This document shows positions 3 to 40,285 of a stretch of 64,000 nt of DNA, one piece after another. Position 1 is the first letter of the stretch. Each line of letters opens with the position of its first letter. Origin of the DNA: Phoronis australis. Its lineage: Eukaryota; Animalia; Phoronida. The notes under the pieces were generated by a model. That model saw only the letters and a program-made list of their open reading frames with translations, was not told where the DNA came from and searched no databases. The stretch is from assembly GCA_002633005.1 (NCBI GenBank), contig NMRA01000017.1:858157-922156 (forward strand), in the 5' to 3' direction. Position numbers and translations under genes: made by a program.

Positions 3-527
3 TACGCGCCAATCTGTTACAAATTTAAAAACGAATCGGATGGATACTGGGTAAACACTGGCTACGGAATGATATCTATGTGTCTCAAGGACTATCACCT
101 GGCAGGTGGTTATGACGATAGATGGGGTTACAAGTGGGGAGCTGAAGACGTCGACTTGTGCAATAGACTGAAGTCTGTCGCCATGGTGCCCTACATTTCG
201 CGGCCGCAACAAGAAGGATTTTACCACAAGCACAGTGGTAGCACACGAAAGACTTACAAAGGATACTATACAAAGAAGAACATGTACGACAAACCACTTC
301 CGGTAACTCCGCTGACGACAGCTATACCGGAAGATGGACTTGAGGAACGAGTCGCTGTGTTTGCGAAGTCTCGTCTGGAAGAAAAAACGCGTGACCTTAA
401 GTTGAAATTTCTAAGCGCTCAACAGACGCCCGTGAACGAAGGAGAGCTAATATGGTATGATGTCCGCTTTTTGAATATCAACGACGGTCGCAAATACTTT
501 GCAATTATTGAGAGCGTGTTATCATGA
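3..527 (+). CDS. 3' terminal exon of a GT7/CHGN-type glycosyltransferase (beta-1,4-N-acetylgalactosaminyltransferase 3/4-like or chondroitin GalNAc-transferase-like); 5' part lies outside the window
   Basis: Frame is open from base 3: YAPICYKFKNESDGYWVNTGYGMISMCLKDYHLAGGYDDRWGYKWGAEDVDLCNRL. The G-Y-W-x-x-x-G-Y-G ... GG ... WGxED signature is typical of the GT7 C-terminal region. Stop TGA at 525-527. Confidence 0.75.
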   Translation, partial: YAPICYKFKNESDGYWVNTGYGMISMCLKDYHLAGGYDDRWGYKWGAEDVDLCNRLKSVAMVPYISRPQQEGFYHKHSGSTRKTYKGYYTKKNMYDKPLPVTPLTTAIPEDGLEERVAVFAKSRLEEKTRDLKLKFLSAQQTPVNEGELIWYDVRFLNINDGRKYFAIIESVLS

Positions 528-6546: not shown

Positions 6547-6755
6547 GTACACGTTGTACCAGACGTGCGCATTGCATTGATCACTGACCTGGAACCATTT
6601 TTATGCTTGATTAATATATAAATAAAACCGAGCTGAGGAGCTAGACGGACCTGACTCAAGGGGCTAGCAGTGTGCCCCAGTGGGACTCGAACCCACGACC
6701 TTGAGTAGGCTAAAGGAAGCGGACACCTATCACACTATGCTACACTGCCTGCTCT
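6547..6755 (-). mobile_element. tRNA-derived SINE with CORE-like central domain, copy 1
   Basis: Minus strand: A-box-like TAGCATAGTG, B box GGTTCGAGTCC (6683-6693), then cccttgagtcagg...ctcctcagctcggtttt...taaaaatgg, resembling the CORE-SINE domain. A homologous copy lies at about 35733-35950 (+). Confidence 0.75.
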
Positions 6756-7442: not shown

Positions 7443-10400
7443 ATGCCTGCGAGAGTACCTATCTTCGAAAGTCTTTTAAATTACCTGGTGGAAAATCCAG
7501 TGTATATTGTGTTGGGCTTCGCTTTGTATGTGCTTGTCTGGGGCATATCAGTGTTGTTTTCAAAGCCTAATCCTGGAAAAAACCCGTTCCTGTTTGATAC
7601 AGCTCGTAAACCTGCTCCACTTGTTACGGATCATGGCGCGAGGGACAAAGTCCTTAAACAAGGTGAATAGCCTGTAACCGGGGCTCAGAAAGTGATGTCA
7701 GTGGAACATAAGATGTAGTTACCCATCAGATAGTTACTGTCCCCTATAAATTCATATCTGGCTTGTCCTTTTACAGCATTAGTTGTAACCTTGGTGCAAA
7801 GCATAGAAAATGTAGTTGACGTTTGCCTTCACTCAGAAGTTCAGCTAGCTGCATCTCTGTCGTAATTTTTTAATTCAGTGTTTGTTATGAAATATTCAGT
7901 ACAATGAATATACACATCCAGAAAGCACCAAGAGCCAATGTATCTGGCTTCATTAATTCATTAGTTTGTAAAAGCTTGGTATTAAGCCTAGCCAGATCAG
8001 GTCACAGGCGTCCTCAGCTTCTGATCGTCTCCAATCCAATACACTATATATACTACAAGACTCGGGACTATAGGAATTCCATGGGTGTGTAGTGAGAGCC
8101 AAGATTACCCGACCTCAGAAATCGAACCAGCGACCCCCATAAAACCGCCAAGCGTGCTAACCATTCAGTTAATAGGCAATTGCCCGTCTCAGCGAGTGGC
8201 TAACAGAGGCTCATATGATTCACCGGAAGCACTTTCACAACATTCCCCTAGGCATGCCACCAGGAAGTTGAACACCAGGATGTCTCCCATACGTAGGTCA
8301 TCAACGGCCCTTGGTACTTTTACCACCACAACACTGGTGAACACAAGGTAGTCTCTGATACTCAGCTGGTCCTTGACTCCTGCAACCTTCCATGCGTGCC
8401 GTCCCAAGGTCCGCGGGTACTAGTTGGCAGTGCTTCATCGGTAGATCATCCATCCTGCCGACTACGCCATTTGTAGTAATAGCCGAGATTACCCGACCTC
8501 GGGAATCGAACCAGCGACCCCCATAAAACTGGCAAGCGTGCTAACTATTCAGCTAATAGGCAATTGCCCGTTAGCGAGTGGCAAACAGAGGCTCATGTGA
8601 TTCACCGGAAGCACTTTTACAACAGGTGCTTCACTTCAGCCGTCCATATCAAACCCATAACTTAATAAATTTACACAAGCCAGGGGTTCTACAAACCGTG
8701 AGCAATTGTTCTTTCTTCTGATGGCATTTACGGTGTCCTGCTCGGACAGCAAGTTCGCAACAAATTCGCGGTCAAAGCACCCGAGTGTCATACCTTGTAG
8801 TACACATAAAGTGTATTGGGGAAATTCAAAAGCTGAGGATGCCTGTGGACTAGGTAAGAAAATGAGTCCAGAAATTTTAATATTGTCACAATTTTTGTCT
8901 CTGAGTTGACCTCACACAATTGCCTATTAGTTTAATTTCAAAACAGGAAAGGCGTGCTTTCAAAGTGGAAACTACATGATAATTTTGAGTCATGCTGGCC
9001 ATTGCATCTGAACTGTAAAGTAATATCACGTCCCATAGGGACTCCCAGTTTTCACAGCAACATTTCTGGAAACACAAGACATTGGTTTATCACAACAAGT
9101 TTATTTTCTGCAGTTTTGAGAACCTACCATTCCAAAGTTACATACATGCATATGGGTCATGAAGTGCTGTGCAAATGACCTGTTTTTTCCAATTATGGCA
9201 TATGTAGGTCAGATTGCTATATTATAGATCAATGTGGACCTTACCTGTGGCAACCAATACTATGACCAGATAGTTGGGAAACCAAGGCAGAGTGCAATGT
9301 AAATGCTTCTGTCTGATGCTTGCGAATGGAAAGAAAGTCAGCGCGACACAATTTTTAGTACTGGACGATGATCTTATTTATTTTTAATCTTAACTTATAC
9401 AAAAAGACTTGTAAGAAGCTTTAGCTCATTATTCTGAGTTATTTAATACTTTGTGATTAAATGTAAATCTTTTCCCACAAATTTTAAGTATGACGTGTAG
9501 AGTTACCCCAGGATTGTTATTCGGGTTTTTGTTCAGAAGATGTAAATTAATCGATTTCTAAACCATGCTAATCACATGTTCACCATTCAGGTTTTAGCAT
9601 GAAGAAAATTCCTGATAACCTCGATGTCATAGTTATCGGTAGTGGTATGGGAGGTTTGACTGTGGCAGCCATCTTGGCCAAAGCTGGAAAGAAAGTGTTA
9701 GTGCTGGAACAGCATGACCAGGCTGGAGGATGTTGCCATACGTTTTTAGACAAGGGATATGAGTTTGACGTGGGTGAGTACGTGAAACATCTAGCCAATT
9801 GGGTGTGTTGTCTAACCTATTGACAGGTTTTTACGAGCACGGGGGAAGAAATTGTATGGCATCTATGTGTCCCTGGATGTTTGGCTAAAATAATAAAACA
9901 AAACGATCATAGTTGATTGAATTCTTATTAATTATTATTTAAGTGCCGTCAATGTGCGAAACCACTTACTGCCGGCAAAGCACTTTGGCCACTTACAGAA
10001 ATGTGCTTCATTTCTGTGGCTATAGGATGAAATTATTCATCATTATGCTTTTAAAGCTCACACACATGACCTTGCAAAGTGATGTTTAAATGTTCTTTCC
10101 ATGTTTTCTAGTTTGTATCTAAAATATAGTGTACAGTAAAATGATTGGAAGGTTTTTATCTAAGTAGATTCTGGGAATTTGACATTATGAAATCAGCCTT
10201 TTACCATGTTCCTGAGTCATGAAACTCAAAATAAATTTATGCAAAAAGAAAGGCCAACTTGCTGGGTTTTCTCTGTGTGTTCTGAGATGGGATGTTCCCC
10301 ATAATTTTGGGAAATTGTACACGATGTCCCTGGAAAAGGTGTGTGATGTGCAGCTACAATCATTTGATGATAGCCATTTTGTGCTTGCTAAACTTTACCT

Positions 10401-13400: not shown

Positions 13401-16400
13401 ATTCTAATTTTTGGTTTTAAAGACTTTGGTAACATTTATATGGCAGGCCAGTTTCTGACAGTGAGATTTTTTACACTTCATTTCCTACGGTGTTCCTTGT
13501 CACAAAATCTTTTTGAAAATCTGAGAAAATGAAGAAAATTCAGGTAAAAATGAGGTAGATAGCACGGACACTGAATTAAGTGAAATTTAATTTTTTTCTA
13601 TTTTACAGGTGTCCGTGTTCATAAGACAAGTGGTGACATCGATGTGTTTGCCCCTCTGATCATCTCTGATGCTGGCGTCGTTAACACGCTGACAAGTCTT
13701 GTGCCCAAAGATATTGCAGTCAAGTCTCGTAAGTAAAGTGATACTGACAGTTGTTGTGGGGAATATTTTCTTATTAAGTGAATCACTGTCTTGTTATTTG
13801 TATACTTAGGTGAAACACTAGTTATTTGCATAGTTTACTTAATATATGGATAACTTGTTATTTCCATAACTTGGGTGAATCTCTAGTTATATGTCTAATG
13901 CATTAAATATCTAGTTTTTTGGATACTCATTTGAATCACTTGTCGTGGGTAAAAATAGCTTTGTTGGTTATGGTTTTGTTATGGTTTGCACCCAACTCAT
14001 TTTGAAACCTGCATCTCAAAACTGCCATCAGATGGCACTGGCATGCAAATGACAAGGGGCTTTAGAAACCGACTCTTTGTTATCCAAAGATAAAGGACAT
14101 GTGCGTGCTTGGGAGGTAAAATTCTCATGATACACTGGCACTTTTAAGGACGAAGTTCTTATTGAGTATACTGGATGTGTGTATTTAAAAGTGAAAAATT
14201 GGACATTCTGGAATGGCCGTAAAGCCGGACATGAGCATCAAGAAGATTACTGTTACATATGGTATTTGTTCCGGTTTGTTTTTCTGTTTTGCTTCATCAT
14301 CACACAGACCAGTGTTGTTTCATGAAAGCTTTGGTTTCAAAATTCAGTTGCAATTGAGAGATAACCTTCTATTGACGGTCATAAATGCTCCAGATGTTCA
14401 TTTTTGCGAGCCTTTTTGACATGAAACTTAATTTGACTCGTTTTTCTGACAGTTGAACTGAGGGAGAAGCAGTTTTATGGAATTATTCGTCTTGCCTTTA
14501 GAATTATTCATCTTACCTTTAGAATTATTTGTCTTACATTTAGAATCATTTGTCTTACCTTTAGAATCATTTGTCTTACCTTTAGAATCAGCTGTCTTAC
14601 CTTTAGAATCATTTGTCTTACCTTTAGAATCATCTGTCTTACCTTAAGAATCATCTGTCTTACCTTAAGAATCATTTGTCTTACCTTTAGAAGCATTTGT
14701 CTAACCTTTAGAATCATTTGTCTTACCTTTAGAATCATTTGTCTTACCTTTAGAATCATTTGTCTAACCTTTAGAATCATTTGTCTTACCTTTAGAATCA
14801 TTTGTCTTACCTTTAGAATCATCTGTCTTACCTTTAGAATCATCTGTCTTACCTTTAGAATCATCTGTCTTACCTTTTACCTTTAGAATCATTTGTCTTA
14901 CCTTTAGAAGCATTTGTCTAACCTTTAGTGTCATTTGTCATTTGTCTTACCTTTAGAATCATTTGTCTAACCTTTAGAATCATTTGTCTTACCTTTAGAA
15001 TCGTTTGTCTTACCTTAAGAGTCATTTGTCTTACCTTTAGAATCATTTGTCTTACCTTTAGAATTAGTTGTCTTACCTTTAGAATTACTTGTCTTATCTT
15101 TACAATCATTTGAAGAAATGTGATAAACATGGAATATTACTAGATATTTATCTATAAAACTGATTGTTTGAAATTTTTCCATCATGATAACATTCTCTGA
15201 AGTTGTTGAGATATGTTGTACGCATATAACAATATAATTCATCCATGAACTTTCAGCCATGTACAAATTGTTAACGACTAAGACAGTGCAGTCTGGTGTG
15301 GGTGCATTCTCTCTGTTCGTCGGCCTCAAAGGAACCACAGAGGAGTTGGGACTAAAAGCTAACAACGTCTGGGCATTCACTGGGTTAGTATTTTATTTCA
15401 GTCTTCATCTGTCTTGTAAGTAGACTGTATTAAAAGGATAACAAACCTAGTTTTTTGCCTATTAGCATTGAAAACGCCTTTCCAATTCAGTTCTCTGAAA
15501 CAAAATGATGCTCTGTAACCTTCGACAACCCTCAAAAGTAAAAGTTGAAAACTTACAAAATCTGCTAAATAGGCAAACGTCACCTACGTTTTAGACGAGT
15601 TACACGACAACGGTAGGGACAGATCACACACGAAGAACTATAATATCCAATCTAAGTGACACAGAAGGTATGAGTTTTTAGTTGAATCTGAAGTTAGCCA
15701 AATTTTGGACATTTTTAGTGCCCTACGCTGCCTAAATGTTATACAGTCACGAGTATTGCTGTATGTATTTTGTTGTAGTCTATATGAGTAAAAGGAAACC
15801 TTTTAGTAACTTGAAGTTGATCTGTATTGTCTTAACGCCTTCACATTAATGGGTTTAAACGTCTCTCAAACTTAATGAAACTGTCACTTACTCAAATTTA
15901 ACTTAATTTTGTCAAACAACTTTCTGATCACATTGTCTGTTCTTCCTCACTAAAAAAATCTCTAGTTTGCAGTCCAGTAAGTCACTTGCAAGAATCGCCG
16001 TAAGGTGGCAGCACGTTACTGAGTAATAACTTTAGTGGCAGAAAGATCTCTACACCCACCACCTTAAACCAATTTTAAACATTTAACTTCATCGCTAAAG
16101 TATGTTGGTCCAAATAACACATGTCAGCACAGCAATCCACGTACACAGAACCTTCCAACTGTATACACTTAGATACAGGTCTGTCAAGCTCCGAAAACTG
16201 TGTTTTCTCTTTGACCTTGGGAACAAGACCATCGCTGCCTGGGTATGTTTCAACGACGCGAGCCAATGGCCAGGTATTTCTAGGAGCAGTTTTGTCGACA
16301 ACATCATTGATTTGAAGATTTTTTTCTGCTTCAACCATTTTTGATCACATAAATATTGAACTTGACGCCATCTACGCTTCAGATAGATGACGATTGTCCT

Positions 16401-19400
16401 TCCTGTCAAAGGTTCCAGGTGGGTAGTTGGAGTTAGCTCGCAACAAGGGCATCAGGGGCTGAAGGTCTCTTGGATGATTGACATGCATGTGATTGGCCTT
16501 CCATTCAGTATGGATTCAGTCTCGCACATCGAGGTACTCAAACTTTCAGTTGTCAGCGTCTGATCTTGCAGTAGAATCCCGAGCACCTTCCTCACACTGC
16601 GAATTTTGCACCTTTCCTTTATGCCTCCCCAATGAGATCCGGAGGGCGGATTAAATATCTACCTAATATTCTTCTGTGAGGCAAATCGTGAGATCACTTC
16701 TTGACTGAACTTGCTGAGTGACTCTCTGAGTTCCCTTTCTCCACCCACTAGATTGGTTCCATTGTAGCAACACTCGTCTGGCAAGCACTTGTATTTATAA
16801 CCCAAAACTTCGTGAAGTTTGGCTTTGGTGTAATTTCTGCCCATATGTCCGCAGACTTGGTAAAATGGCGGATAATCAATGCTGTCCCATAGTCGTACTT
16901 TGGTGGAATAATCTATTGCTTTACGCCTTCAGGAAATTTGTCTACCACCGACATTCAACAGACCATCTACCAAGACTGGGTCTAAGTTACGGATACTTCT
17001 GCACTTCTTGACCAGTGTCTTACCACCATCACTTGACTGGTAAAAGTCTGCCAGTTTGTCTGGGAAATGATGTCACTGAACAATTCTTAAAATGAGAATT
17101 TCCGCATCCAATTCCTCTGGCACCAAAAGACCAATTTCACCTGTCTTGCCTGTGATTTGGTTTATGAATATCTTCACCCAGGAAATCACTCTCATAGCCT
17201 TTGTCCACAAAGACCAGCAGTGAATAACCTCAAGAACCGGATGAGAGTCTGCAACTTTCTGTGAAAACACCTTGGTTGCTGTCTTTACTTCGGGATCGTC
17301 TTCAGAGAGTATAATTTCAGTGACTTTGTTGCATGGCCACTGGTCAGCTGGTTTTCTCAAGAAATTGGTTTCTGTCAACCACTTACTGTTGGACAGGAGT
17401 CTGTCAGCTGATAAACCTCTTGAGGCATCGTCTCCAGGGTTCACCTTCCCTTCTATGTGCTTCCATTGTTGGACAGTTGTTCCTTGATGGATAACAGTCA
17501 GTCGATTTGCGGCAAATATTTTGGATCTTTTGTCTGTGTTGCGTATGTACTTTGAGACGGCCTCACTATCGGTCCAAAACATCGACTCTTCAGTTACGTC
17601 CATCTCTCTTTGTATTGCTGCTTCAATTCTGACAGCTAAGGTAGCTGCTGACAATTCGAGTCAAGGTATTGCCATAATCTTTAAGGGACTCGCAGGAGAC
17701 TGATGAGGCTTGTGTTAACTTGACCCGTCGCCATAGTGGGTTTTCAGCAGTTTCAACCCCATGTCATATCCCTTCTTTGGGTTACCTATTAATATACTTT
17801 CTACCTTTGGTTCTTTGCCAAGGAACTGGTGCAAATAGTATAACCTTTGGCTTTCTGAGGTGATGCGTGAAGTGATATTTTCGAACGCCAGTCGGGTCGC
17901 CATCAAATCAAGGCATATTGGATTTTGGTAATGTCGTGCTTCCAAAAATTTTCGTCATTCTCTGTTCTTCTTTGTCGCTCTCATTTTTTACAGCTTTTTT
18001 GCGGGGTACATTTATATCAGCTGAAGATTCACTTTCAGAATCATCTCGGACTAGCTGCTTCACAAGCCAGGTTTCTGCTCTTTTCTTAAGAGTCACGACA
18101 TAAGTCTCTTTTTCTTCTAAATCTTCGAAGAGAACTTCAACATCTGACTGCTTCTGGCATACTTTAATTATTTCTTTGTAACAATCTTTATGCGTGTGCC
18201 AAATATGCTTTAAAGCATGGTGTTTTTGCTTAACTTCAGTCACAGACATTTCATCTAACATCAAGGAGCAAAATGTAGTAGATTTTTATCAGTTTTAACA
18301 TTAGTTTTGAGAGAATTCTGTACTGCCAACAGTCTTCCGTCCAACAACAATTTTATACAGAATGCCCTTAGCAATCATGGGAAAACAGCATTTCTGAGGA
18401 GTTGAATTATCCAAAGTTCCTAAAAGCTCTCAAATATTTCACATTCTACAAATCCCCATTGCAAACGGCCATCTTAAATACAAATCTTTTACATGAGAAA
18501 ACACAATGTCGGGTTATTAAAGAGATTATGAACATTTTCATTGACATGCCAAAATAAAGAAACAGTTACCATGTCCGCACTGTCTTTCATTTTACACTCT
18601 TGATATGTTCAACTTCTACAAATTACATTAAAGGCCAAAGAAAAATGTTTAGCCATATTTCATGTTAAGACTAGGAGTGTAATGACACTCATGCAATTTT
18701 AAGTCAAAACACCCTTTGATTGACTGGCACTGTAGTAATCACCTGCCAAATGAATGCCATCTTGACAGAGCACTCACACCTTAAAACATGGAAAAAGATT
18801 TTGTGCACACTATGTATCACCCAGGGGGAGAGGCACGTCTAATGGGTAGCCCAGTATGAATCCGTGAACACAAATAAACAATGTTATTTCAAAGCTCATA
18901 ACACCATTCATGGTATTCCAGAAATAAGGGTCACATTCAACAAACACAAACCTGTCACATTTGATATACACAGCTTCCAAGTTTTCACTCCCGCCGACTA
19001 GTTGTTGTTAACTCCAAATTACGGCATCCGAGATTTCAACGGTAAAGCACAATCTGGTAATATGAAGCAAAAGTGCGTCATATTACGAAAAAAAAACTCA
19101 TGATATGACGCATATTTGCGTGATATTACGCATCTTTGCGTTACGTTACGCACCAGTGTGTTACGTGACGCATTTTTGCGTAATATCACGCACGCAAATT
19201 TGCGTTACCGTTACACACAAATTTTTAATTGCCAATTACCAAAATCTCGTTAATTGATTTTTCAAAGCAAAATCAGGAATGTGTTTAAAAAGTGATAGTC
19301 TTTCGTACCAAGTCATTTTTGTTGAAAATATCTGGATATTTTTCATTTGCGTCACGTTACGTTCCAGTTCGGGACAAAATGAGATTTTCCCTATTTAAAT

Positions 19401-28325: not shown

Positions 28326-31300
28326 CTAGTAACCACCATAGACAACGTTTGACTTATGACTCTGACTGTGACTGCTAAGTAACGCTTCACTTGCACTTGT
28401 ATTTTTGCGCTCCTCAGCTCGTCTGTAGCACTTTCTCAGGTTCCAGCCGGAGATGATTACCAGAAGGACAAAGGCTAAAGCAACACAAATACCATCCGAT
28501 TGTTATTATGCAGGAAAATATAATCACTGTTAACCAAAAACTACCAAAACTTCCCGAGCAATATTGAGCTTACTCTCTAAATTTAGCACCACATTAAAGG
28601 TCTTTTCTGACCTGGTGGCTCATACATAAGTTATAGTATTCCATCAAATAATAGCAATAGAATAATAAAATACATATAGTCCATTATGTTGAATTATTTG
28701 TTGAAGAGCTGACCATACATTGAAAGGAGTATGAACCTGTTGAACAACAGCGTTTGAACTAGTTATCGAAAACCGAAACACCGTATATGTTTTTCTGTAA
28801 TTACAGAAAGTATCCTTCAGAACTGAAATCCCAAAAATCTACGGTGTTTGCCATTTTGAACTTCGTAACACTCAGTGTTTTGTTTAATGAAATGCACTTG
28901 CCTAGTAACCAATGTTCCATTAACAAAATTTTGATAACTTATCATCATGATCATGTACAAACTGGCAGAACACAATGTCATGCAAAAAAATAACGAATGG
29001 CCTACACCCACAGAAATAGCCTATAATAATTATACAAATAAAAGGCCATGCTTAGGGCTGTTCCAGCAAAATCTGTGTGGGAGGGGGGAAGGCAACTGAA
29101 ATAAAAATTTATGGGTGGTTGCGTTTGATTTAAATTCAAAATGGCTGGTGGCCGTACTTCAAAAAAATAAAAATTTACAGGTCGTTGTTGTTTCATTGGA
29201 CCATAAATGTTTGATGGTGGGTAATTTTAGTAAATTTTATAAACAATCTGCACAGAATCAAAAACTGAAACAAAAATGCAACTTGCAAAAATCTCCGACT
29301 TTTTCACTCCCTCCGATCTCCTCATCGGCATGCCCATAACACCATTTAACCACAGGTGCTCGAATTTCTTGATGGCTAATAACAATATATAAGAAACATA
29401 TGTTTTCTTAGTAATGAATGACGTTAGTGGCGATGGAGGAACAGATAAACTCAAGCGCCTGTGCAGTCAACCACAAGAACAAAAAAAAATTATGGGTGGT
29501 TGCATTTCAAACTTATAAAAAATTACGGGTGGTAGGCTGAAGAAATAAATGAAAATATGGGTGGTGGGTGCGAAAAAAAGGTGCCTTCCCCCCTCCCATA
29601 CAGATTTTACTGGAACAGCCCTTATATCTTCGGGTTTGCTGTCCGAGACTGGCAAGATGTCACTGTACTCTGACTAACTTACCAAATGAACAACCTCCAA
29701 CAAGAACATAGAACACAGTAGTGTAGACACAGTGGTTCCTGATGACAGGGCTGATCTCAGTGAACGTGGGGCAATTAGACGGCCACATGGATCCCTTGGC
29801 ACAGATCTGAGAACGTGGGCATGGGATGGGCGCCTTGTTAGGACTCTGAGGGAGAAGGGGTGAAAGGAAGCTAAGTAATACAACATTACTGTAGCAATCA
29901 CTACTTACCATACACCTAGCCAATATGTCAGCTCAAACAGAATGAAGATGCATTGAAAAAATGTTCACACAGGTTCTGTGAAATGGACATAAATCAGACG
30001 AAATTTCCGATGTGAGGACAAAATACTTATTAAATGCGCTAGTACTAACAAAATCCAATTTCCTCACACTTGATCATATTTCGTTCTTTTCACCTCTTTG
30101 TAGCAAAGACGAAGTTCAGTTAAGGTGGCATACGACTTAAGTCGTCTGCCACCTTACGCTCACAGATTTTGACCTTATGATGTCATGTTATAACTACCGG
30201 TATTAGCAAACCAAATGATGCCAAAGACTTAAAAAGTGAAATTAAAAGTATACCTAGTCATCTGCACTAGGTGAAAAATGCAATTAGTGGAGTGACAAGC
30301 AAAAAGTAAAACGTTGAATCAATTGAATAAACACACTTTTGAAGGACTAGATTTCCATTTAGTTAAATCATGTATAATTTCTGCAGACAAATTTGTTTGT
30401 GTGATTGACACACTTTTGAAGGACTAGATTTCCATTTAGTTAAATCATGTATAATTTCTGCAGACAAATTTGTTTGTGTGATTGCAATTTGAATGTGTAT
30501 GGGTCAATACTTAATGTGCAAAGCAGGTGCAGCATGCACAACACTAAATCCTACACTTTCAATGTAAAGATTATTTTACAACCCTCGTCAGATTCATGAT
30601 TGGTTTACTAACGACACTTAAAGCCTGTATGATTCATGTTACATCATGCTGCAAACATAAAAAAATCTTTCTGGCTCTTCCTAACATTGTACTGCAGCTC
30701 AGGTCACAAATTTTTGTCTGACCGGTTGTCTGGCAGACTCCGACCAGACGAGCACGGGCCTGCAAGTTGTTGTTAGCTTGGTTTGTTTCTACTATGGTCA
30801 TCATTTTCAACTGTTAAAAACAAATTTATCTATGTGTTTTGTTTATAACTGGGCGTTATAATATCATTCATTAAGGTTCACAAGTAATTCCTTGTGAATA
30901 GTAGATGGGCTTAACAAACTGCAAGAAATTTACGATGTTTGTGGTTGAAGTATTCAAGACTTCTATAAAGATGTTCAAAATTAGTCCTTACAACAGTAAA
31001 AGCTTACCACTTATGGAGAAAAATATTCACCAAAATTTTCTATATTGATTTTCAAACTTACAACATTGTAGTGAATGGTTACCATTTCACAAAACATCCA
31101 TTTGTCTTGTGATAGGTTAAGTATTAGAAAATGAAATTAAAACTGAAAGAAAAATGTGTATACTTGGTGTAAGTAATCTATGAAAATGAGAAAATAGAAT
31201 TTTCCAATTGTCCACCACATCAAGTCGTACATTGGTGAGATTTCATTGTTCTCCAAACAATTCAGTTAAAATTGAAAGGGACTTACAGGACAATATTTCC

Positions 31301-34300
31301 CCTCAGGGCACTCTAAGCATCGACTTTGCCCCTTATTTATCTGGTAGTAGCCATTTTTACATGGCTTACACATGACAGGTTTAACAGAGTCTTTGTAATA
31401 TCCTCTGGGGCAAGGTGTGCAGTTGGCCATCCCAGGGGATTTTGCTTCTTCACCAATTCCACATGGAGGGCACTCGATACAGCCGCTGATGCTGAAATCA
31501 CAAATTAAGTAAAAAAGTGACCGTCTTCAAAACATTGCCTGCAATTATATACCTACTAACACATAACCCAATTTTGCTTGAAGTAATGACTTTTAACCAT
31601 TAGCAATTCAAATAGTGATACAATACAAAATCATCACTTTCTTAAAGTGGTTATAACCCATCTTTCGTCACAAAAAACAACTTTTGATTGAGACCATTGA
31701 AAACATTTAATGGTCTCAAAAAGTCAATAATAAGAGTGATCTTTGGGCTTGGAAAGAACAATAGGACACCTCGTTCTGGAACTACAAGTTGTCAAGGTGG
31801 GTCACTTTACATGCTAAACATGGTCTAGAGCAATAACAAACAGTTCTTTGCAAAGTTAACAAGAGCACCACTGACAAAGCATTGATATGCAACCATGACT
31901 GTGCAACAGATCTGGGCCACTATCAAGGAACTTCGAAAAACACAACATTGCAACCAGGCGGCACAGCTGTCATCAGATAAGTCTAAAACTCTGAAGTTGG
32001 CGATTTGTGACCTTGACCTTGTGGCTAAATGTGACATTGCTGTAAATGCGTGTCAAGAGTACCAGAGTTTACATACCTGCAATGTGATCCAATGCTACAC
32101 GGTTCACACTTGGTCTGGTCACTGCTAACGTGACTGCCTTCTTTACAAATTGTGCATGTACTCACGTTGACCCTTACGTAACCTTATGAAGAAACAGAAA
32201 AGTTAATTGATTAAATAACGAATCGGAAAGATTATGCTAATAGAGCTGTTCTCACTAAACTTGCTTTGATCACGATGTTAACCCCAAAACGTCCAATCAT
32301 AGACAGACCAAGACTGAATGATACATATTCGTTGCTGCATGCCCAAGAGTAGCCACAGTTTTTGCAATAGCCGTTCAGCAGAGTTTAACTCCAAACAATG
32401 ATTTCATCATTTTTTACATCAAATTGTGATACACCTGTTGCAACATACAACTGGGCTCACCTGGAAGACAGCTGCAGTTTCTTTGGCCCCGTTTGCTACA
32501 AAAGATGAATAATAATAAGAAATTAAATTCAAAAAGACAAACATCTCTCCCAGTCTAGCATCACCATGTTAATCATCATTGAGTATTTTAAGTACAGTTC
32601 ACCGTCATACAACACAGTCTTGATATCGTTAAGGACGAATGTCTCGTTGAGTCTAATGGGATTGATGACATGATCGCTAACGATTACTCTGTTGAAGAGG
32701 AGACAACTTTTCGCACCAAAGCGAAGTTGCACAACTCCGCATTTTAAACCACCAACTTTGAGAGGAGTTGCGATTGCTAATTAAGTGCTTGAGTTACACT
32801 TTCCATAGACCAGTACTCCGCAAAAGGGGTGTTGATGGGAAGGTGACATCAAAATAATCAGAACCCTGTGACAGCAGTAATAGCTATCTTCCAACCTCAG
32901 GAATGACAAGTTACTATAAAGCTAAGATTTTGCGAAAATAAAGAAGCATTACGTGTCCATTTTTGCTGTAAATGTTACTCACAGTAATAGTATGTACCGT
33001 TAACCATATAGCAGAGCATTTTTAACAATAGATGGCACTGATGAGGCCTAAGAATTATTAACAATTTGGCAACAATAACACCAACACCAGAAGTAATAGC
33101 AACAACAGTGACTTCATTGTTAATTCTTGGAGACAGCCAAGCCAAAACTTACTTGAGCACCGTTCCAAGGCCACATTTATCACAGGTAGTCTGTCCAGCA
33201 CGAGACTGGTATGTACCTGGGTAAAGACAATCGTATCAAGATAAGAACAAAACATTGATCACAAAGTATATTCAATTGAAAAATTGTCGTGTTTCTGTGA
33301 CTGTAAAAACACACACGCCCAGTGATTTGCAGTGAAAAGGATTGGTAACATTCATATGGAGCCTTTTTCACAGTGACTATATCTGTGAGCACACTCAGGC
33401 TTTCATAATTTCTCAATATTTTCTTAACCCAGGTCACAAACACAACTACACCTTTACAAGGCACCCTGATTGCAGGTAATGGTTAGTGTGATAATCATTA
33501 TTATTACAATTATATCCACTCAATCCAAACAAAGTGTTATGCCCCTGATGTCAACTTTCCAAACATGTAAAGTACAAGCTGACACGAGGACGAAATACCC
33601 TTTCCCACTATAGCAGCTTATTGCTTTCTGAGTAAAAATGTCATGGCTCGTCACTTGAAATTACAAATTATTCTAACGGCGTTTCCATCTTGTTAATTAT
33701 CCTCATGATTTTTTGGCCATTCACCAATCATGACAAGGAATTACTAAATTTCATCTCGTAACTTTTAACATGTCTAGGGTGTCACTTTGTGTTACCCACC
33801 ACGATGTTTATCTCTTACCAGGGGAGCAAGGAGAGCAGTTTACTGTCCCTGTTGTATTTGAGATGCTGCCTGGTTCACAGAGTGAGCAGGAGACACAACC
33901 AGTTACACTGAAAAGGAACACAGAACAGCCATATGACAGCATTCAGTAATATGTCAATTTCTTACTGTGAAGCCAAATTTTTCATAACTCGTAGCCAGTA
34001 CAGCAGGTTTTGGCCTCACATTATGGGATACAACTTGAAACTAAGGTCTTTCCTGAAGCTTCATGGAGACCCTTTGTCTTCTATCTTTCAGTGAGTTAGC
34101 GTTCCAAATTATACAGGTAACTGCATGACAGTGTTTTCCTGTTCAGTGACTTTAAGAGATGTAGGGGGTTTTGAGTGTGTGATAACATCTAGCTTCTTTG
34201 TTAACTGCCAAGCACATTCTTTTGCCTGTTATGACAACGAGTAGGCCAATTATCTACCAGGCTTATTACAGACCAGGCATGAACACAGTCAAACTCAGAG

Positions 34301-37300
34301 TGAATTGGTGTATTCCGAAAGAATAGAGTGTCGTAACTTCAGTTGCAGTTGGGCAAATTTGGCGATTCAAAAACTAAACATGATCACCATTTGACAAACA
34401 TTTCAGAAATGCTATATAATTGGTTTATGTTCAAGAATGTTATAACTTAACTTTTATTTTTAACAGCACAGCCCAGTCAGGGTAGATAGGATCTTATTGG
34501 AGATTAGAGCAATTATCGGACAAAAGAGAGCTGGCCCTCAAACCATAAATGCCAGACTGGAGTTAATCAGTCGTGTAAGATATTGGATACAGGGGTAAAC
34601 TTCCCAACTTGTTGCTGGGCTATAGAATCGAACAAGTTGGGAGCAACGAGAAAACACCATAATGGAGAGTCCAATGTAGCTGGGTAATTACCTCAATGTG
34701 AGAATTCACCCCAGCTAACTTGATGTATATCAATTTGAAGTTCACAATTTTGGTTTGACCTAATTAGCCCTGTGTGGGAATTTACTCAATACTTAGGCAA
34801 AGCGGACAAGTACACAGTTAAGGGAACAGTTGGGATATCATGTGACTTAGATAATGACAACAACATTCAGTAATAACAACACAAATATAAAAAAGTTAGA
34901 GCACATTAACGACTATTCCAGTTAAACCAAGTCACTTCCAACTTCAATGACATTATATATAGTTGAGTTAGAGGGTGAAGTTTCATCACCAAAAATCTGT
35001 TACATTAAAGCCAATTAACAATAACATGCTGAGCCAATGAGGAATTTCATCTTGTATATCAACAAGAAGTACAGAGCGACATGTCAGGATTTAGCAAACA
35101 AAAGGAATGTCAAGGAAATTTTGGTACACTACAAATCATTGCTAGTATTAATTGCTTCACTATATTTGGAACATCAAATGAATTTTATGAAGTTTCATTC
35201 CAAAAATCATTCTTGAAGATATCAAGTGTCACTGGCCTCCTAAGTTTTTGGAAACAATTTTAGTATGCATAAGGTCCTAAAAGGACATTTGGGTTATTTT
35301 CAAATGTCATTGACAAAACAAATAGAAGAGTGTAATTCACAAACTGCCCAGACATAGGGGTTTGTGCTTCACGCCGTTTAGGTCTATAACTCTTTCGCTA
35401 CTGATAAAAATATCCAGATACATAGATAGTGACTGAGGTAAGAACAGGTCACACTGTAGTGACCAGTAGAAACTGCAGACTGAAGTGAACTTTGCCTTGA
35501 GTGATATAATCCTTTATATAACTGATTCAGAAAAGGAGTATATGACACAAAGTTAGTTACTGGTCTGGCGACTTTTTAAAATTGTCTGATGCAGAATTGA
35601 AATTTTAGTAGCTATTCCATTGAAAAAGTTTCCATTTTTTAAATGCAGAGTGTTTATTCATTAGGTTTTAAACACTGACTTAGCTTATATCAGCTTGGAC
35701 TTTAAAAACTTTTTGAAAACTTAAAACATAGACTGAGGAATCAGTGCAGCTTAGAGTGATAAGTGTCCGCTTCCTTTATCCAAGGTTGTGGGTTTCAGTC
35801 TCACTGAGGCACACTGATGTACCCTTGAGTCAGGTCTTTAGCTCCTCAGCTCAGTTTTAACTAAATATTAATAGAGCATAAAAATGGGTCCAGGTGATCA
35901 GTGCAGTGGGCCCACGTGAGAGGCCTGCGCACGTCTGGTACATGTACCAGATGAGTCCGCCTGCAATTAGTTTTTATAAAACATCTTATTTAACACCTCC
36001 ACCTAATGATTCATTCCCTAACAAATTAAAATTGACAAAATATTTCTAGTACCCAGCTGAATGTCAAAAGATAAAAATAAATCAGTCAGTCGGTTGATAA
36101 ATATACATATCAGCTGATGGCTAACTGATAAATTTATAGGCCAGAGGAACAGAAACAGATAAAGCAGTGGGGTATACACCTCTGATGTCTTGAATCAGTC
36201 TTAAGATTCAGTAGTAGACCCAGACAACAGTGTGGGGAAAAAATAAACAAGAGTGAGAATGTATTGTGAAACTGGAGTCTAACAAGAAAATGCCCTTACA
36301 TCAAATGAAACCATTCCAGGAAACCTGTTTGGAATAAATTTCAATTTTGATATTTTTTGCTACCGCAAAGACAGTCTTCAATCAACAATCAATCTTACTT
36401 TTTCAATGATATTTTGGTCAAGAGAAACAATGATATATAACCACCTACTTACTTGCAGAAGTGACCACTGCCACACACTGTGCATATGCTCATTCCAAGC
36501 TGGTCAGCAAAGTGACCAGTAGGACAGGGTGCACATTTACTGGAATTTTCCTGGCCAGCTATGGAACCTGCAATTAGCGAGTTAAATTTGAGCAATCATC
36601 CGTGTTTCCTACTTAACTCTGGTATAGTACAAACTATCATAAACAGGGATAATGAAAATATTGTGTGTTGTCTTGTTTCTACGCCTATAACGGCCAAAAC
36701 GGAAACATTATTCTTGCAATACAAGACATTGAACAGAGCCCTTGGTGGAAGTACCGTGCTTTCGTTTCCTTATTACAGCATTTGTTTGACAGTGTATTAA
36801 GGATATCTCAAACCTTAAAAAAGGTGTTTACATAAAAATAATGACGGAACATAAATATAAAGCATATTTTTCTAATATCTGATCTTTCAGAAGATATACA
36901 CGTTTATTAGACACATGTATGAGTTAGAATGAAAGTCACTAAATAAGGTTGAAGGTAACCTTAGAAGCATCTAAAACACCTTGAGAAAATGATAATTACC
37001 TTTGGCACACAATGAACACCTTAGACTTCCACTAACGTTAGTGAACTGTCCTTTATCACAAGGCACACACTGCTTGCTACCAGTGGTGTTGCTATAGTAA
37101 CCGGGGGTACATGGAGTGCATCCTATACTTCCAGTGTCATGGGCAAAAGAACCTGGGTCACATGACTTGCACGTGATGGAAGCAGGCTCATTTGCATAGC
37201 TGCCTGCTGAACAAGGTTTGCACACAGAACTTGCACTCGTGTTTGCGTAAGTCCCAGGGTCACATGACCTGCAAGCAACACTTCCGGGATCCTTAGCGTA

Positions 37301-40285
37301 ATGTCCCTCCTCGCACGGTGTACACTGTGAGCTGCCACTGGCAGCACTGGACTGGCCAGGTTCACATGGCAGGCAGTATGAACTTCCCTTTGAACCTGCA
37401 TAATGCCCAGGCACACATTCCTGACACGTGGTGCCACCTGTGTGATTGACAAAATGTCCTTCGCCACATGCAGTACAAGTGACTGTTCCTGAGATACTGA
37501 AATATAAAACAAGTTAGAATAATGAAATAACTACATACTACACAATTGACAATTTAAGATTCAGTTCCTTCAAAATGAGATATGAAAACCTGTCAAAAGA
37601 TATAAAATGAACATTTGAGTTTCATACAGACGGTACATTCTCTAGAACAGATATTTGAGCATTATTCTAAAGTCAAACACAAATTAATATCTTTTGCAAA
37701 ATTTGAAAATGGATGAGCATAGACATATGAACAACACGTCACAAAATTAAGACATATGAGAAACAAGCATATGGAGAACTATTTCTTCGAATATCAACTT
37801 TGAGGTTGTCAAATTCAAATTTGGACAATCATTAGTCACCACAACATGGCATATGGACTACACCCAACTTGAAACCCGATCATGGCTGATGCATTCTGGG
37901 TACACTTACTTATTTTTTCAAGATTGATGTCCGTATTGGTCTAATACAGAAACTCATAGAAAAAAAAGAATAAATATTACTTAAACAAAAATGGGTCACT
38001 GAAATTTTTGGAAACAGAAACAGAAATAAAGTAAAATCAAACACATATCAGATGTCAATTGTCATATGAGTGTTTGATTTTACTATTATTTCTGTTTCTG
38101 TTGACGAAGGATATTATTATATCCGAACATTTCAGTGATCCATTATTGTTGTTTTATGTATTTTCATTCTACTTTTCGATACACAAGTGTATCCTTTAGA
38201 GGATCTGGATCGCCTCTCTTGTTTCGGATATATTTTCCACGTTATACAAAAAAAAAAACACAAAAGTGACAAAGTCTTTGGAGTGAAAGTGAATAATTTT
38301 ATGTTTACTTTGTGAAGTAGCCAGCTGCACACTCCTTACAGCTTGACTGGCCTGGATTGTCCTGGAAATGACCAGTTGGACAAGGGGTACAAAAGATCAA
38401 GGGTGAGCACGCACCAGACTTGTTTCCCACCCGGTAGCAACAGGCACAGCTCTCCTTGGCTAAAAAAATCGAAACATGAATTACACACCAAACTAATGTG
38501 GTAATGGGGAACCAAAAATTCTTGGCTTTTGTACATCGTTATGCAAAATTAACATCTGTATTTTTGTGCGAGGTAATACACACAGACTTCCAGACTCTTT
38601 CAGCAAAATCAGACTAGTCTTTATAACATTTAAGGACTGGATTGCCAACAAAAATGTGCACACAATCTGAGTCATTCGTCCAACTCTAATCTGGGCTCAG
38701 TGACATCTAGTGGAGAAACATCATGACAGTTGCTTCAGTCATGACACACAACAAGCCGTTCTTATTAGTCAGACCACAAAAAAGGAGTTTTTCACTAACT
38801 CTGACATACTTATGATCAAAGCCTTCTACATCCCAATTACCTGAGTCTGCATAATGACCAACTGTGCAGGTATCACATAACGAAATATTGACCGTTGAAC
38901 AGTTGTCAGATGACAGGTAGCTACCTTGTACCTTGCTTGTGCTTAGAGAGATGGCAAATAGCAAACCTGAAATATGCAAGACAAATGTTAACAAAATGTT
39001 AAAAAGACACCATGCAACTATTAACCATAACTTGACTTTCATTGATTTCACTATAAACCATGTTTTCATTAAAAAATTCAATTTTCTTCACAAACGTATT
39101 AACTAGTACTCTTCCAAAGCGATGTCATTGCATTTTTATCCTTTCCATGAAATGAATAACAGTAGGAATTTGGAATTTCGAGGCACAAAGATGTTGATTC
39201 AAAGTCAGGCAAACTCTAACACCAAACAATAACCAGGTAACAGCCAGGCTAAAAAAGGCAGAGAACGGGCTGACTGTCACAAAAAGTAGTCACCTGCTTC
39301 TTAAAGGAGAATGCCACCCAATTTAATTAGTCTTTTTACCATCTTAATCGGTCTATATCCACATCGCCTCGCATACGATCGACCTTACCTTGCCGAGAGG
39401 TGTCGCGTTAACCTGTGAGAAACGACGCAGTGACGTCAGTGGTCCATTTGCAAAGTGAATGCCGCTATGTTGTGGTGCATCGTTCCCACTTGTCCGAACC
39501 TACGCAGCTGCGAGGAAAGCGGGTACATTGTTTTTTCGACTTGCTCGAGAGTCCGAAATGCTTAGGAAGTGGTTCGGGGTAGTGAAGAATGAAAAGTACG
39601 CTGTTAATCGGGTTCCAAGCCACTGGCTGGGATAACAAGCGTTTTGCGTGTTTAGAACTCAAAAATTCAAGTCTAAACAAGACAGATCTAGGTTCTCCTG
39701 TCTGTATTATACGGAAGAATTCTTTGAATTTATATCCGAACAGACCCCAAACTTCTGCTACGGACCTTGGTAAATTGGCCCGTCGAACTTTTTAGGCTAC
39801 GGTGTGTCCAAATACCAACAAATCCGTAACAGCAAAATAAAACAACACGTTTTTAAAAGAACTTGGTGTATTTTTAAGGGTTTTACATCGAAGTTTGATG
39901 ATTTATTGGTGTTAAACAATGAATTTCAAGTGATAAGCTGACACAAGGAACCCGTGTTGTGAACTGCTCAACAGACTGCGTGTGAAACCAATGATGTAAT
40001 TGGATAACTTCAACACCTCCGTCTGCCGTCAGGTAACGCAACCGAATGTGCCGCTACCGAGTAGAACTACTCGATCTAAATTGATACAAAATAAGGTGTT
40101 TTTTGGGTGGCATGCTCCTTTGAGCCTGGTTACGCCTAAGCTGAAGTCAACTAAATCTAACTTCTAATCTAAGGTCAAAGTCTGACTCTAAGGTTACTAA
40201 GCAGCTAAGGGAATGAAAAGTCACAAAAAGATACTTCACCTGAATGAATGAGAGACAAAAGTAAAAGCTTCTTCTTTAACGTCAT
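28326..40285 (-). CDS. Uncharacterised type I membrane protein with tandem cysteine-rich (GCC2/GCC3, ephrin-receptor-like) repeats, 12 exons, 581 aa
   Basis: Exons (minus strand) 40285-40240, 38966-38841, 38459-38309, 37496-37000, 36567-36453, 33907-33819, 33216-33153, 32495-32461, 32182-32077, 31491-31287, 29845-29683, 28474-28326. All GT-AG with matching phases; total 1746 nt. Signal peptide MTLKKKLLLLSLIHSGLLFAISLS; tandem repeats of about 17 aa, CxxCxxG(Y/F/H)...G; TM segment VFYVLVGGCSFAFVLLVIISGW; tail NLRKCYRRAEERKNTSASEALLSSHSQSHKSNVVYGGY*. Confidence 0.88.
29055..29621. mobile_element. PIF/Harbinger (Tourist-like) MITE
   Basis: 40-bp TIRs GGGCTGTTCCAG(C/T)AAAATCTGT(G/A)TGGGAGGGGGGAAGGCA with 2 mismatches. 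3-bp TSD TTA at 29052-29054 and 29622-29624. Confidence 0.88.
30121..30156. repeat. 36-bp near-perfect palindrome
   Basis: taaggtggcatacgac-ttaa-gtcgtctgccacctta; self-complementary except for one pair. Confidence 0.85.
30331..30484. repeat. Perfect 77-bp tandem duplication
   Basis: 30331-30407 is identical to 30408-30484 (acacacttttgaagg...tttgtgtgattg). Confidence 0.92.
35733..35950 (+). mobile_element. tRNA-derived SINE with CORE-like domain, copy 2 (more degenerate)
   Basis: Aligns with the reverse complement of 6547-6755: gtgataagtgtccgcttccttta, caaggttgtgggt, cccttgagtcagg, agctcctcagctc, gcataaaaatgg, tgcgcacgtctggtaca. Confidence 0.75.
39305..40119. mobile_element. Non-autonomous Kolobok-like DNA transposon in intron 1 of the Cys-rich gene
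   Basis: TIRs AGGAG(A/C)ATGCCACCCAA. Flanked by TTAA (39301-39304) and TTGA (40120-40123, one mismatch). RR termini plus a TTAA target are the Kolobok signature. Confidence 0.75.

What the first reader, a model, noticed from the sequence alone, without database searches (positions are those of the whole stretch)
8088..8624. Intact miniature LTR retroelement whose LTRs carry a tRNA-type RNA polymerase III promoter
Seen: two LTRs of about 154 bp with TG..CA ends, a perfect 4-bp TSD (GGTG), an 18-nt PBS complementary to the tRNA-Ser 3' end (ATCCTGCCGACTACGCCA), a PPT, and only 229 bp of non-coding interior. On the element strand each LTR has an A box (TAGCTGAATAG at 8555-8545; TAACTGAATGG at 8171-8161; consensus TAGCTGAATGG) and a B box (GGTTCGATTCC at 8512-8502; GGTTCGATTTC at 8128-8118) at tRNA-like spacing. 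Known: LTR elements normally use Pol II; plant Cassandra TRIMs carry 5S-derived Pol III promoters. From my recollection, tRNA-bearing TRIMs with 4-bp TSDs in animals were recently named Helenus. Inference: a SINE/LTR hybrid transcribed by Pol III and mobilised in trans by a tRNA-Ser-primed Gypsy-type partner, probably an uncatalogued family in this lineage. Caveat: a T4 run lies between the A and B boxes in both LTRs and could act as a Pol III terminator.
Basis: partly seen in the sequence, partly recalled or inferred. Interest (0 to 1): 0.85.

Follow-up and report, generated by a model that had tools for sequence, protein, structure and literature searches.

The report
Helenus-type tRNA-headed mini LTR retrotransposon
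This is an aged copy of a tiny, gene-less, multi-copy jumping element of an animal whose two end-repeats each carry the promoter motifs of a tRNA gene; it fits a kind described in 2024 (Helenus), is likely copied by RNA polymerase III and likely moved by a larger Gypsy element, and a short self-pairing word beside its promoter, shared with many published relatives, may be an overlooked RNA-pairing signal.

Summary
Observation confirmed: 537-bp non-coding element on the minus strand, LTRs of 153/155 nt (90% identical), TSD GGTG, 18-nt tRNA-Ser PBS, 7-nt PPT, A and B boxes in both LTRs. It is a multi-copy family: LTR ends join many different flanks, empty sites hold one GGTG, and RNA reads suggest two further 4-bp TSDs. 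It sits in a MITE, antisense in an intron. It meets every testable defining feature of animal Helenus (Kojima 2024); no family in that paper's data has this PBS, so it is probably an uncatalogued family of a known kind. This scan has noted the kind before (32 findings, at least 11 genomes). Pol III use is untested: bulk RNA-seq shows mostly passenger reads and no discrete start or end. Two extras: this copy's PBS is a full 18-nt tRNA copy where most copies match 14 nt; and a 10-nt palindrome just before the A box has counterparts in 51 of 76 published non-insect animal Helenus LTRs (by eye), 25 with a G-U pair and none with A-C, hinting at RNA pairing. Host phylum not determined.

The parts
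8625..8628 (.). target-site duplication GGTG (element 5' side)
   Evidence: empty paralogous sites hold one GGTG (tables 5c, 7)
8472..8624 (-). 5' LTR, 153 nt, TG..CA
8570..8586 (-). short inverted repeat (6-bp arms, 5-nt loop) upstream of the palindrome; one mismatch in this LTR, 2-nt insertion in the 3' LTR
   Evidence: sequence; stem formed in the 3' LTR fold but not significant (z -0.88); similar hairpins seen by eye in published Helenus LTRs
8559..8568 (-). perfect 10-nt palindrome GGCAATTGCC, -13 to -4 from the first T of the A box; candidate RNA pairing word at the predicted 5' end
   Evidence: 3 sites in window, 0.05 expected; third at 24973 is unrelated; predicted pairing of the two LTR copies
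8545..8555 (-). A box of the 5' LTR (one private change at 8546; 99% of family depth has the canonical letter)
8525..8528 (-). T4 run between the boxes (possible leaky Pol III terminator)
8502..8512 (-). B box GGTTCGATTCC of the 5' LTR, 43 nt from the A-box start
8452..8469 (-). primer-binding site, 18-nt complement of the tRNA-Ser 3' end including CCA; most family copies match only 14 nt
8243..8471 (-). non-coding interior, 229 nt
8243..8249 (-). polypurine tract, 7 purines abutting the 3' LTR
8088..8242 (-). 3' LTR, 155 nt, with palindrome 8184-8175, A box 8171-8161, T4 8144-8141, B box 8128-8118
8084..8087 (.). target-site duplication GGTG (element 3' side)
8003..8847 (.). host MITE (about 304 bp without the insert), terminal inverted repeats 8003-8059 / 8794-8847 (78%), flanked by 8-mers alike at 6 of 8 (7995-8002, 8848-8855), which would fit a hAT-type element (recalled rule)
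   Evidence: very high depth and many flanks at 8003
7663..9590 (+). inferred intron 1 of a host FAD-oxidoreductase gene (exon 1 7443-7662, exon 2 9591-9773; retinol-saturase-like by recall); the element lies antisense in it
   Evidence: (NAD_binding_8, E 2e-15); GT..AG ends keep the frame; not confirmed with RNA

Best explanation
This is an aged copy of a multi-copy, non-coding miniature LTR retrotransposon (TRIM) with tRNA-gene A and B boxes in each LTR, a new family of animal Helenus that is likely transcribed by RNA polymerase III and likely copied and integrated by the proteins of a tRNA-Ser-primed Ty3/Gypsy element. Steps: (1, inferred) TFIIIC binds the boxes of the 5' LTR and Pol III starts about 14 nt upstream of the A box (candidate G8569), so the palindrome is the RNA's 5' end; (2, inferred) T4 at 8528 is leaky: some transcripts stop at about 45 nt, the rest read through PBS, interior and PPT and stop at the same T4 in the 3' LTR, giving a roughly 430-nt RNA with a roughly 45-nt repeat at both ends; (3, predicted) the two palindromes pair the RNA's ends or two RNAs, aiding strand transfer or packaging; (4, shown at sequence level) priming is by tRNA-Ser and integration leaves 4-bp duplications; (5, inferred) the enzymes come from a Gypsy helper; (6, inferred from depth) LTR-LTR recombination has left many more solo LTRs than full copies.
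For: Full LTR-retroelement anatomy with no coding frame. Mobility: in DNA contigs of one sample both LTR ends run into many unlike flanks (18-23 contigs per end, agreement 0.37-0.41); paralogous MITE copies lack the element and carry GGTG once; pairing the dominant left and right loose ends of RNA reads gives TSDs CTTC (3 of 3 RNA runs) and GGGC (1 of 3), neither extending to 5 bp (pairing inferred). Summed contig depth relative to single-copy flanks: interior 44-469x, LTR 1,225-5,325x, across U3 as well as the tRNA part (the tool warns that this is no copy number). Boxes: of the 23 LTR rows among the 40 variant rows shown, 3 lie in boxes and all 3 go towards the canonical motif (99%, 99% and 66% of DNA depth); none lies in T4. 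No TATA or AATAAA/ATTAAA word on the element strand. PBS: 82-86% of family depth differs at 8452 and about 85-95% lacks one base at 8454/8455, so most copies match tRNA-Ser over 14 nt while this copy matches over exactly 18, as expected if the primer's 3' end was copied into it (m1A58 stop, recalled). Helper type: 46 of 115 metagenome loci with this 18-mer have ACA 1-4 nt before it (at least 3 of the 46 look bacterial); 11 of 16 chosen ORFs from 10 such loci... all 10 loci tested carry RT, RNase H, integrase, protease or gag-type domains; L049 is a complete integrase-coding element with a 4-bp TSD. Kojima 2024 gives the same anatomy, sizes and TSD length for animal Helenus.
Against: No direct sign of Pol III transcription: in three RNA-seq runs (547, 524, 527 reads laid from 11-13 million records read, 18-19% of each run) no place has piled starts or ends, depth does not step at 8569 or at T4, 68-78% of reads run on into unlike sequence, and only 7, 4 and 2 reads are 99% or more alike to this copy; library selection is unspecified, so this is a weak test. 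144 variant rows were not shown, so box conservation was not measured. A T4 inside the promoter should cut full-length yield, and many published Helenus LTRs have their T-run elsewhere or none, so step 2 is not general. No helper was found in this host (no genome held; none in the window). The PPT is short. Pairing of palindromes is a folding prediction that any element with a palindrome in both LTRs would give; the whole element folds no better than shuffles (z -0.72).
Confidence: 0.78

Rival explanations
1. A TRIM with the same anatomy whose template RNA is made by Pol II (a cryptic LTR promoter or read-through from host genes); the A and B boxes are a relic of a captured tRNA or SINE head, and T4 would stop Pol III anyway.
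For: RNA reads are mostly passengers in longer transcripts, on both strands, with no discrete ends. T4 lies before the B box. Kojima notes that Pol III activity of Helenus has not been validated. Cassandra is also found in multi-unit mRNA-type transcripts (PMC7215508 passages).
Against: Canonical box letters in about 99% of family depth at the two A-box sites tested; no Pol II core or poly(A) word; boxes are kept across phyla; interior reads lean 1.6-2.6:1 to one orientation, element-sense if the libraries are dUTP-stranded, while LTR reads lean the other way.
Confidence: 0.15
2. The LTR is an independently amplified tRNA SINE or short repeat, and the element is two such repeats that happen to flank 229 nt.
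For: LTR depth exceeds interior depth about tenfold; the genome has tRNA-derived repeats (6550-6750).
Against: TG..CA ends, PBS and PPT in their proper places, one TSD around the whole unit, interior itself multi-copy, U3 as deep as the tRNA part, LTR ends sharp at both termini. Solo LTRs explain the excess; published Helenus show LTR:interior ratios of about 1 to 19.
Confidence: 0.03
3. The palindrome and hairpin upstream of the A box act as DNA (a symmetric protein-binding site that positions or regulates the Pol III start) rather than as RNA.
For: Several published versions resemble Rel/NF-kB dyads (recalled); the word lies where the start complex sits; a loopless palindrome cannot fold on itself.
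Against: About 29 different words keep symmetry without keeping sequence; imperfect ones are G-U type on the sense strand in 25 LTRs and A-C type in none (by eye), whereas chance gives both types equally.
Confidence: 0.2

Closest known systems
Animal Helenus (TRIMp3), Kojima 2024, PMC10886601 (main text read whole; supplement parts 1, 5, 6, 7, 10, 11 of 11 read, all 11 searched); nearest by eye the bivalve and nemertean families such as Helenus-1_MoPh, Helenus-5_PeMa, Helenus-1_NGe, Helenus-1_LiLo
   Same: Two LTRs of about 150 nt with A and B boxes, PBS for a tRNA 3' end, PPT, non-coding interior, total 537 bp (range 311-1263), 4-bp TSD, decayed cloverleaf, solo-LTR excess; same order hairpin-palindrome-A box upstream (8 nt before the palindrome are identical to Helenus-1_MoPh).
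   Different: PBS type absent from all listed families (0 hits for its first 12 nt; the listed Ser-primed bivalve families use two other Ser ends); LTR words not found; no T-run behind the B box, T4 between the boxes instead (shared only with Helenus-1_CVi and Helenus-6_SaGl among those read); host lineage unknown.
Cassandra (plant TRIM with 5S promoter; as described in PMC10886601 and passages of PMC7215508; the 2008 paper was not held)
   Same: Pol III-type promoter inside each LTR, start in the 5' LTR and stop in the 3' LTR giving short terminal repeats; predicted pairing of the two LTRs.
   Different: 5S (A/IE/C) not tRNA (A/B) promoter; plants; Pol III transcription reported there, untested here.
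Ty3/Gypsy elements with the same 18-nt PBS (loci L004, L008, L013, L049, L071, L076, L078 and others)
   Same: PBS 1-4 nt behind an ..ACA LTR end; 4-bp TSD in the one complete case (L049).
   Different: They encode gag-pol, lack A/B boxes upstream of the PBS (0 of 115 loci match my pattern), share no interior sequence with the element, and come from other organisms.
Ty1 PAL1/PAL2 dimerisation palindromes (PMC6844567, abstract read)
   Same: Self-complementary words at the RNA 5' end of an LTR retrotransposon.
   Different: Copia-type, Pol II, experimentally shown; here only an analogy.
biv-TRIM of bivalves (PMC6934838, passages read)
   Same: Small non-coding LTR element in invertebrates.
   Different: No canonical PBS and no tRNA head reported in its repeats.

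Membership tests
Helenus (animal) | TRIM: short (<1 kb as screened), two LTRs with TG..CA, no protein | tested here: met
   537 bp
Helenus (animal) | PBS complementary to a tRNA 3' end and PPT at the interior termini | tested here: met
   18-nt tRNA-Ser PBS; PPT only 7 purines
Helenus (animal) | [quoted passage not shown] | tested here: met
   GGTTC in both LTRs; TAGCT in the 5' LTR, TGG in the 3' LTR, both in about 99% of family depth; motif definition
Helenus (animal) | 4-bp target-site duplication | tested here: met
   GGTG with empty-site control; CTTC and GGGC inferred from paired loose ends
Helenus (animal) | interspersed multi-copy family with solo LTRs | tested here: met
   many flanks at both LTR ends, LTR depth about ten times interior; solo status inferred
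Helenus (animal) | not a functional tRNA gene | tested here: met
Helenus (animal) | Gypsy-type partner with the same PBS in the host | tested here: inconclusive
   such elements exist in other organisms; host genome not held
TRIMp3 (functional sense) | transcription by RNA polymerase III from the LTR | tested here: inconclusive
   bulk RNA-seq of unspecified selection shows no discrete start or end; also unvalidated for Helenus itself
A catalogued Helenus family | sequence identity to a listed consensus | tested here: not met
   0 hits for the PBS and two LTR words in the supplement (70-letter line breaks could hide LTR words, not the PBS); none alike by eye in parts 5-7; Repbase and Dfam not searchable
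Cassandra / Ajax | 5S rRNA-derived promoter in the LTR | tested here: not met
   no 5S match in Rfam at E up to 10; A/B-box layout instead
tRNA SINE | head at the 5' end, simple-repeat tail, no LTR pair, PBS or PPT | tested here: not met

The most novel reading that the evidence does not exclude
Most non-insect animal Helenus families, this one included, share an unreported module just ahead of the A box: a short hairpin and a loopless 10-12-nt self-complementary word that changes in sequence but keeps its symmetry, with G-U but not A-C mismatches on the sense strand. Pol III would place it at the very 5' end of the RNA and again in the 3' LTR, where it pairs the RNA's ends or two RNAs for strand transfer and packaging by unrelated Gypsy helpers. 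That would give TRIMp3 elements a defined cis-signal and point to one ancient origin (or one strong shared constraint) for fish, coelacanth, bivalve, nemertean and this host's families, against the proposed many separate origins.
Probability: 0.4. Interest if true: 0.65.

Novelty: new member of a known kind. Interest (0 to 1): 0.4.

Why it matters
As a family it adds one more host and a new primer type to a class described in 2024 and still without any experimental test; such elements scatter thousands of Pol III promoter motifs through a genome, including into introns and transcripts. The covarying palindrome matters more: how non-autonomous LTR elements that share no LTR sequence with their helpers get packaged and complete strand transfer is stated as unknown in the Helenus paper, and this word offers a small, directly testable candidate, plus a character for asking whether animal Helenus arose once.

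Tried and rejected
Host phylum: three homologue searches, one representative search and one cluster look-up (10 of 54 hits) gave no named animal relative; 'animal' rests on a vinculin-family gene, a DUF5641 (BEL/Pao-type by recall) remnant, spliceosomal introns and the human-identical tRNA-Ser end. An 8-mer count as a lineage hint led nowhere. No RNA holder was listed for the stretch; this is no evidence either way. Functional tRNA rejected. The idea that T4 is the anticodon loop of a tRNA-Lys(UUU) ancestor was considered (Kojima aligns molluscan Helenus to that tRNA) but the run seems 2-3 nt out of register by my count against recalled numbering; a literature search for read-through of internal T4 gave nothing usable, so leakiness of T4 is recalled knowledge. 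BLAST of the element against the 115 PBS loci found only the PBS and a few adjacent letters; the apparent likeness to the L073 family was not supported. Of 30 loci checked for a second LTR only L049 had one within the 3 kb held. No absolute age: no host substitution rate. Searches for prior print: 'Helenus TRIM tRNA LTR retrotransposon' (3 papers listed), 'TRIMp3' (1 relevant of 8), words palindrom/hairpin/inverted repeat in the Helenus main text (0 each); its figures are not held. The palindrome tally was not computed, only read by eye.

Full report
Observation. The element lies on the minus strand from 8624 to 8088. Its LTRs are 153 and 155 nt, start TG, end CA and are 90.3% identical; 13 of 153 aligned positions differ (10 transitions, 3 transversions) plus one 2-nt indel, K2P 0.091, so the insertion is not recent. 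GGTG flanks both ends. Two bases behind the 5' LTR is an 18-nt PBS identical to the start of a DNA template for human tRNA-Ser in PMC3299991 (one passage read); the 19th base no longer matches. A 7-purine tract abuts the 3' LTR. The 229-nt interior has no Pfam match. The head is no tRNA gene. The only T4 runs on the element strand lie between the boxes, and there is no TATA or poly(A) word.

Setting. The element is nested in a MITE-like unit, 8003-8847, with 55-bp terminal inverted repeats and near-duplicated 8-mers outside. The whole lies antisense in the inferred first intron of an FAD-oxidoreductase gene. The host is an animal by inference; five attempts to place it by protein relatives failed.

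Family evidence. No assembly was held, so I laid four DNA runs of one sample and three RNA runs of another study plus one DNA run. Flanks have depth about 40 in X1; interior bins reach 44-469 times the flank depth and summed LTR bins 1,225-5,325 times across the four runs. The tool warns that these sums are no copy numbers; I read them only as hundreds of interiors and thousands of LTRs. The U3 part is as deep as the tRNA-like part, which argues against a separate SINE. Contigs leave both LTR ends into unlike flanks. Other MITE copies join the left flank to 8625 with GGTG once, fixing the TSD at 4 bp. In RNA reads the dominant left and right loose ends, if paired, give TSDs CTTC (X5, X6, X7) and GGGC (X7 only); reads are too short to prove the pairing. 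Of 40 variant rows shown (144 hidden), 23 lie in the LTRs, 3 of these in boxes, all towards the canonical motif; none in T4; one in the palindrome at 1.2% of DNA depth. At the PBS most family depth (82-86% at 8452; about 85-95% with a one-base gap at 8454/8455) matches the tRNA over only 14 nt, whereas this copy matches over exactly 18. The simplest reading is that the primer's 3' end was copied into this lineage during plus-strand synthesis (mechanism recalled); an older 18-nt form that decayed in the main subfamily is the alternative.

Expression. 547, 524 and 527 reads were laid from 12.8, 11.3 and 11.0 million records (43-48 per million). Only 7, 4 and 2 are 99% or more alike to this copy; 68-78% continue into unlike sequence; no starts or ends pile up. 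Interior reads lean 1.6-2.6:1 to the orientation that would be element-sense in a dUTP library; LTR reads lean 0.3-0.6 the other way. This shows passenger transcription and perhaps some sense RNA; it neither shows nor excludes Pol III.

Helper. I scanned 16 of 47 downstream ORFs, from 10 loci chosen for length: 13 of 16 hit gag-type (PNMA, zinc knuckle), protease, RT, RNase H or H2C2-integrase domains, covering all 10 loci, in Ty3/Gypsy order where several domains were seen. L049 has both LTRs and a 4-bp TSD. These are other organisms: they show the helper type exists, not which helper serves here.

Comparison. Kojima 2024 (PMC10886601; whole main text; supplement parts 1, 5-7, 10, 11) defines Helenus as TRIMs with tRNA-derived LTRs, 4-bp TSDs in animals and PBSs shared with Gypsy. 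Every feature testable here is met; Pol III use is unvalidated there too. No listed family has this PBS. The scan's own notes list 32 findings of this kind in at least 11 genomes and none alike in sequence; I did not check them.

An extra. A perfect palindrome ends 3 nt before the A box in both LTRs, preceded by a short inverted repeat. Reading the 76 non-insect animal LTR consensuses in the supplement by eye, with the rule 'loopless 10-nt or centred 11-nt self-complementary word, at most one G-U, ending 0-3 nt before the A box', 51 pass: coelacanth 2 of 2, sturgeon and paddlefish 2 of 2, ostariophysan fish 13 of 14, bivalves 30 of 51, nemerteans 3 of 3, Lingula 1 of 3, ctenophore 0 of 1. Chance per site is 2.7-3.8%. 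26 are perfect, 25 have one G-U on the sense strand, and none of the 25 failing LTRs passes with an A-C instead, though chance favours neither. The families are related, so these are not independent events (about 29 distinct words), the rule was set after seeing the data, and the tally was not computed. Insect and fungal LTRs were not tallied. The paper's text has no mention of palindromes or hairpins; its figures are not held. Folding predicts that the two copies of the word pair in a transcript from 8569 to 8141 (mean pair probability 0.99), which follows from the symmetry and is not proof. Ty1 uses 5' palindromes for dimerisation (PMC6844567, abstract), and LTR-LTR pairing is proposed for Cassandra (PMC7215508, passages).

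Verdict. Real, correctly described, and a probably uncatalogued family of a published kind: new member of a known kind, interest 0.4. Shown: anatomy, multi-copy mobility, 4-bp TSD, tRNA-Ser PBS, canonical boxes in most copies at the sites listed. Inferred: Pol III transcription, leaky T4 as 3' end, Gypsy helper. Predicted: RNA pairing through the palindrome, the one point that could be new.

Noticed in passing
window 6550-6750 (-) and 35735-35950 (+): Two copies (80% alike over 181 nt) of a separate tRNA-headed repeat with A and B boxes and a long body; looks like a SINE family unrelated to the TRIM.
   Followed up: partly
window 8003-8847: High-copy MITE hosting the element; most family members continue differently behind 8780, so this copy seems internally deleted.
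   Followed up: partly
run X7, laid on 8472-8624: One strongly expressed LTR copy with private letters and an insertion seen in X7 only (84 reads; 0 in X5, X6 and in X1 contigs): an insertion polymorphism or individual-specific expression.
   Followed up: no
window 16078-17660 (-): Decayed retroelement coding remnants; DUF5641 hit (E 2e-9), BEL/Pao-type by recall.
   Followed up: no
window 46820-52448 (+): Exons of a divergent vinculin/alpha-catenin-family gene; no relative found for one exon in the protein search.
   Followed up: partly
window 31269-38538 (-): Exons with ephrin-receptor-like cysteine-rich repeats; best hits only 30-39% identical, mostly unnamed or protist proteins.
   Followed up: partly
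window 3-524 (+): End of a glycosyltransferase (CHGN / Glyco_transf_7C) gene; best representatives 31-46% identical.
   Followed up: partly
window 14480-15112: Minisatellite array with a 21-nt-based period.
   Followed up: no
L049:whole locus: Complete short Gypsy-type element (identical 216-nt LTRs, 2.55-kb interior) whose integrase domain lies only about 0.8 kb behind the PBS: Gmr1-like order or an internal deletion.
   Followed up: no
Helenus supplement, hymenopteran LTRs: Several wasp families have a long hairpin rather than a loopless palindrome just before the A box; not tallied.
   Followed up: no
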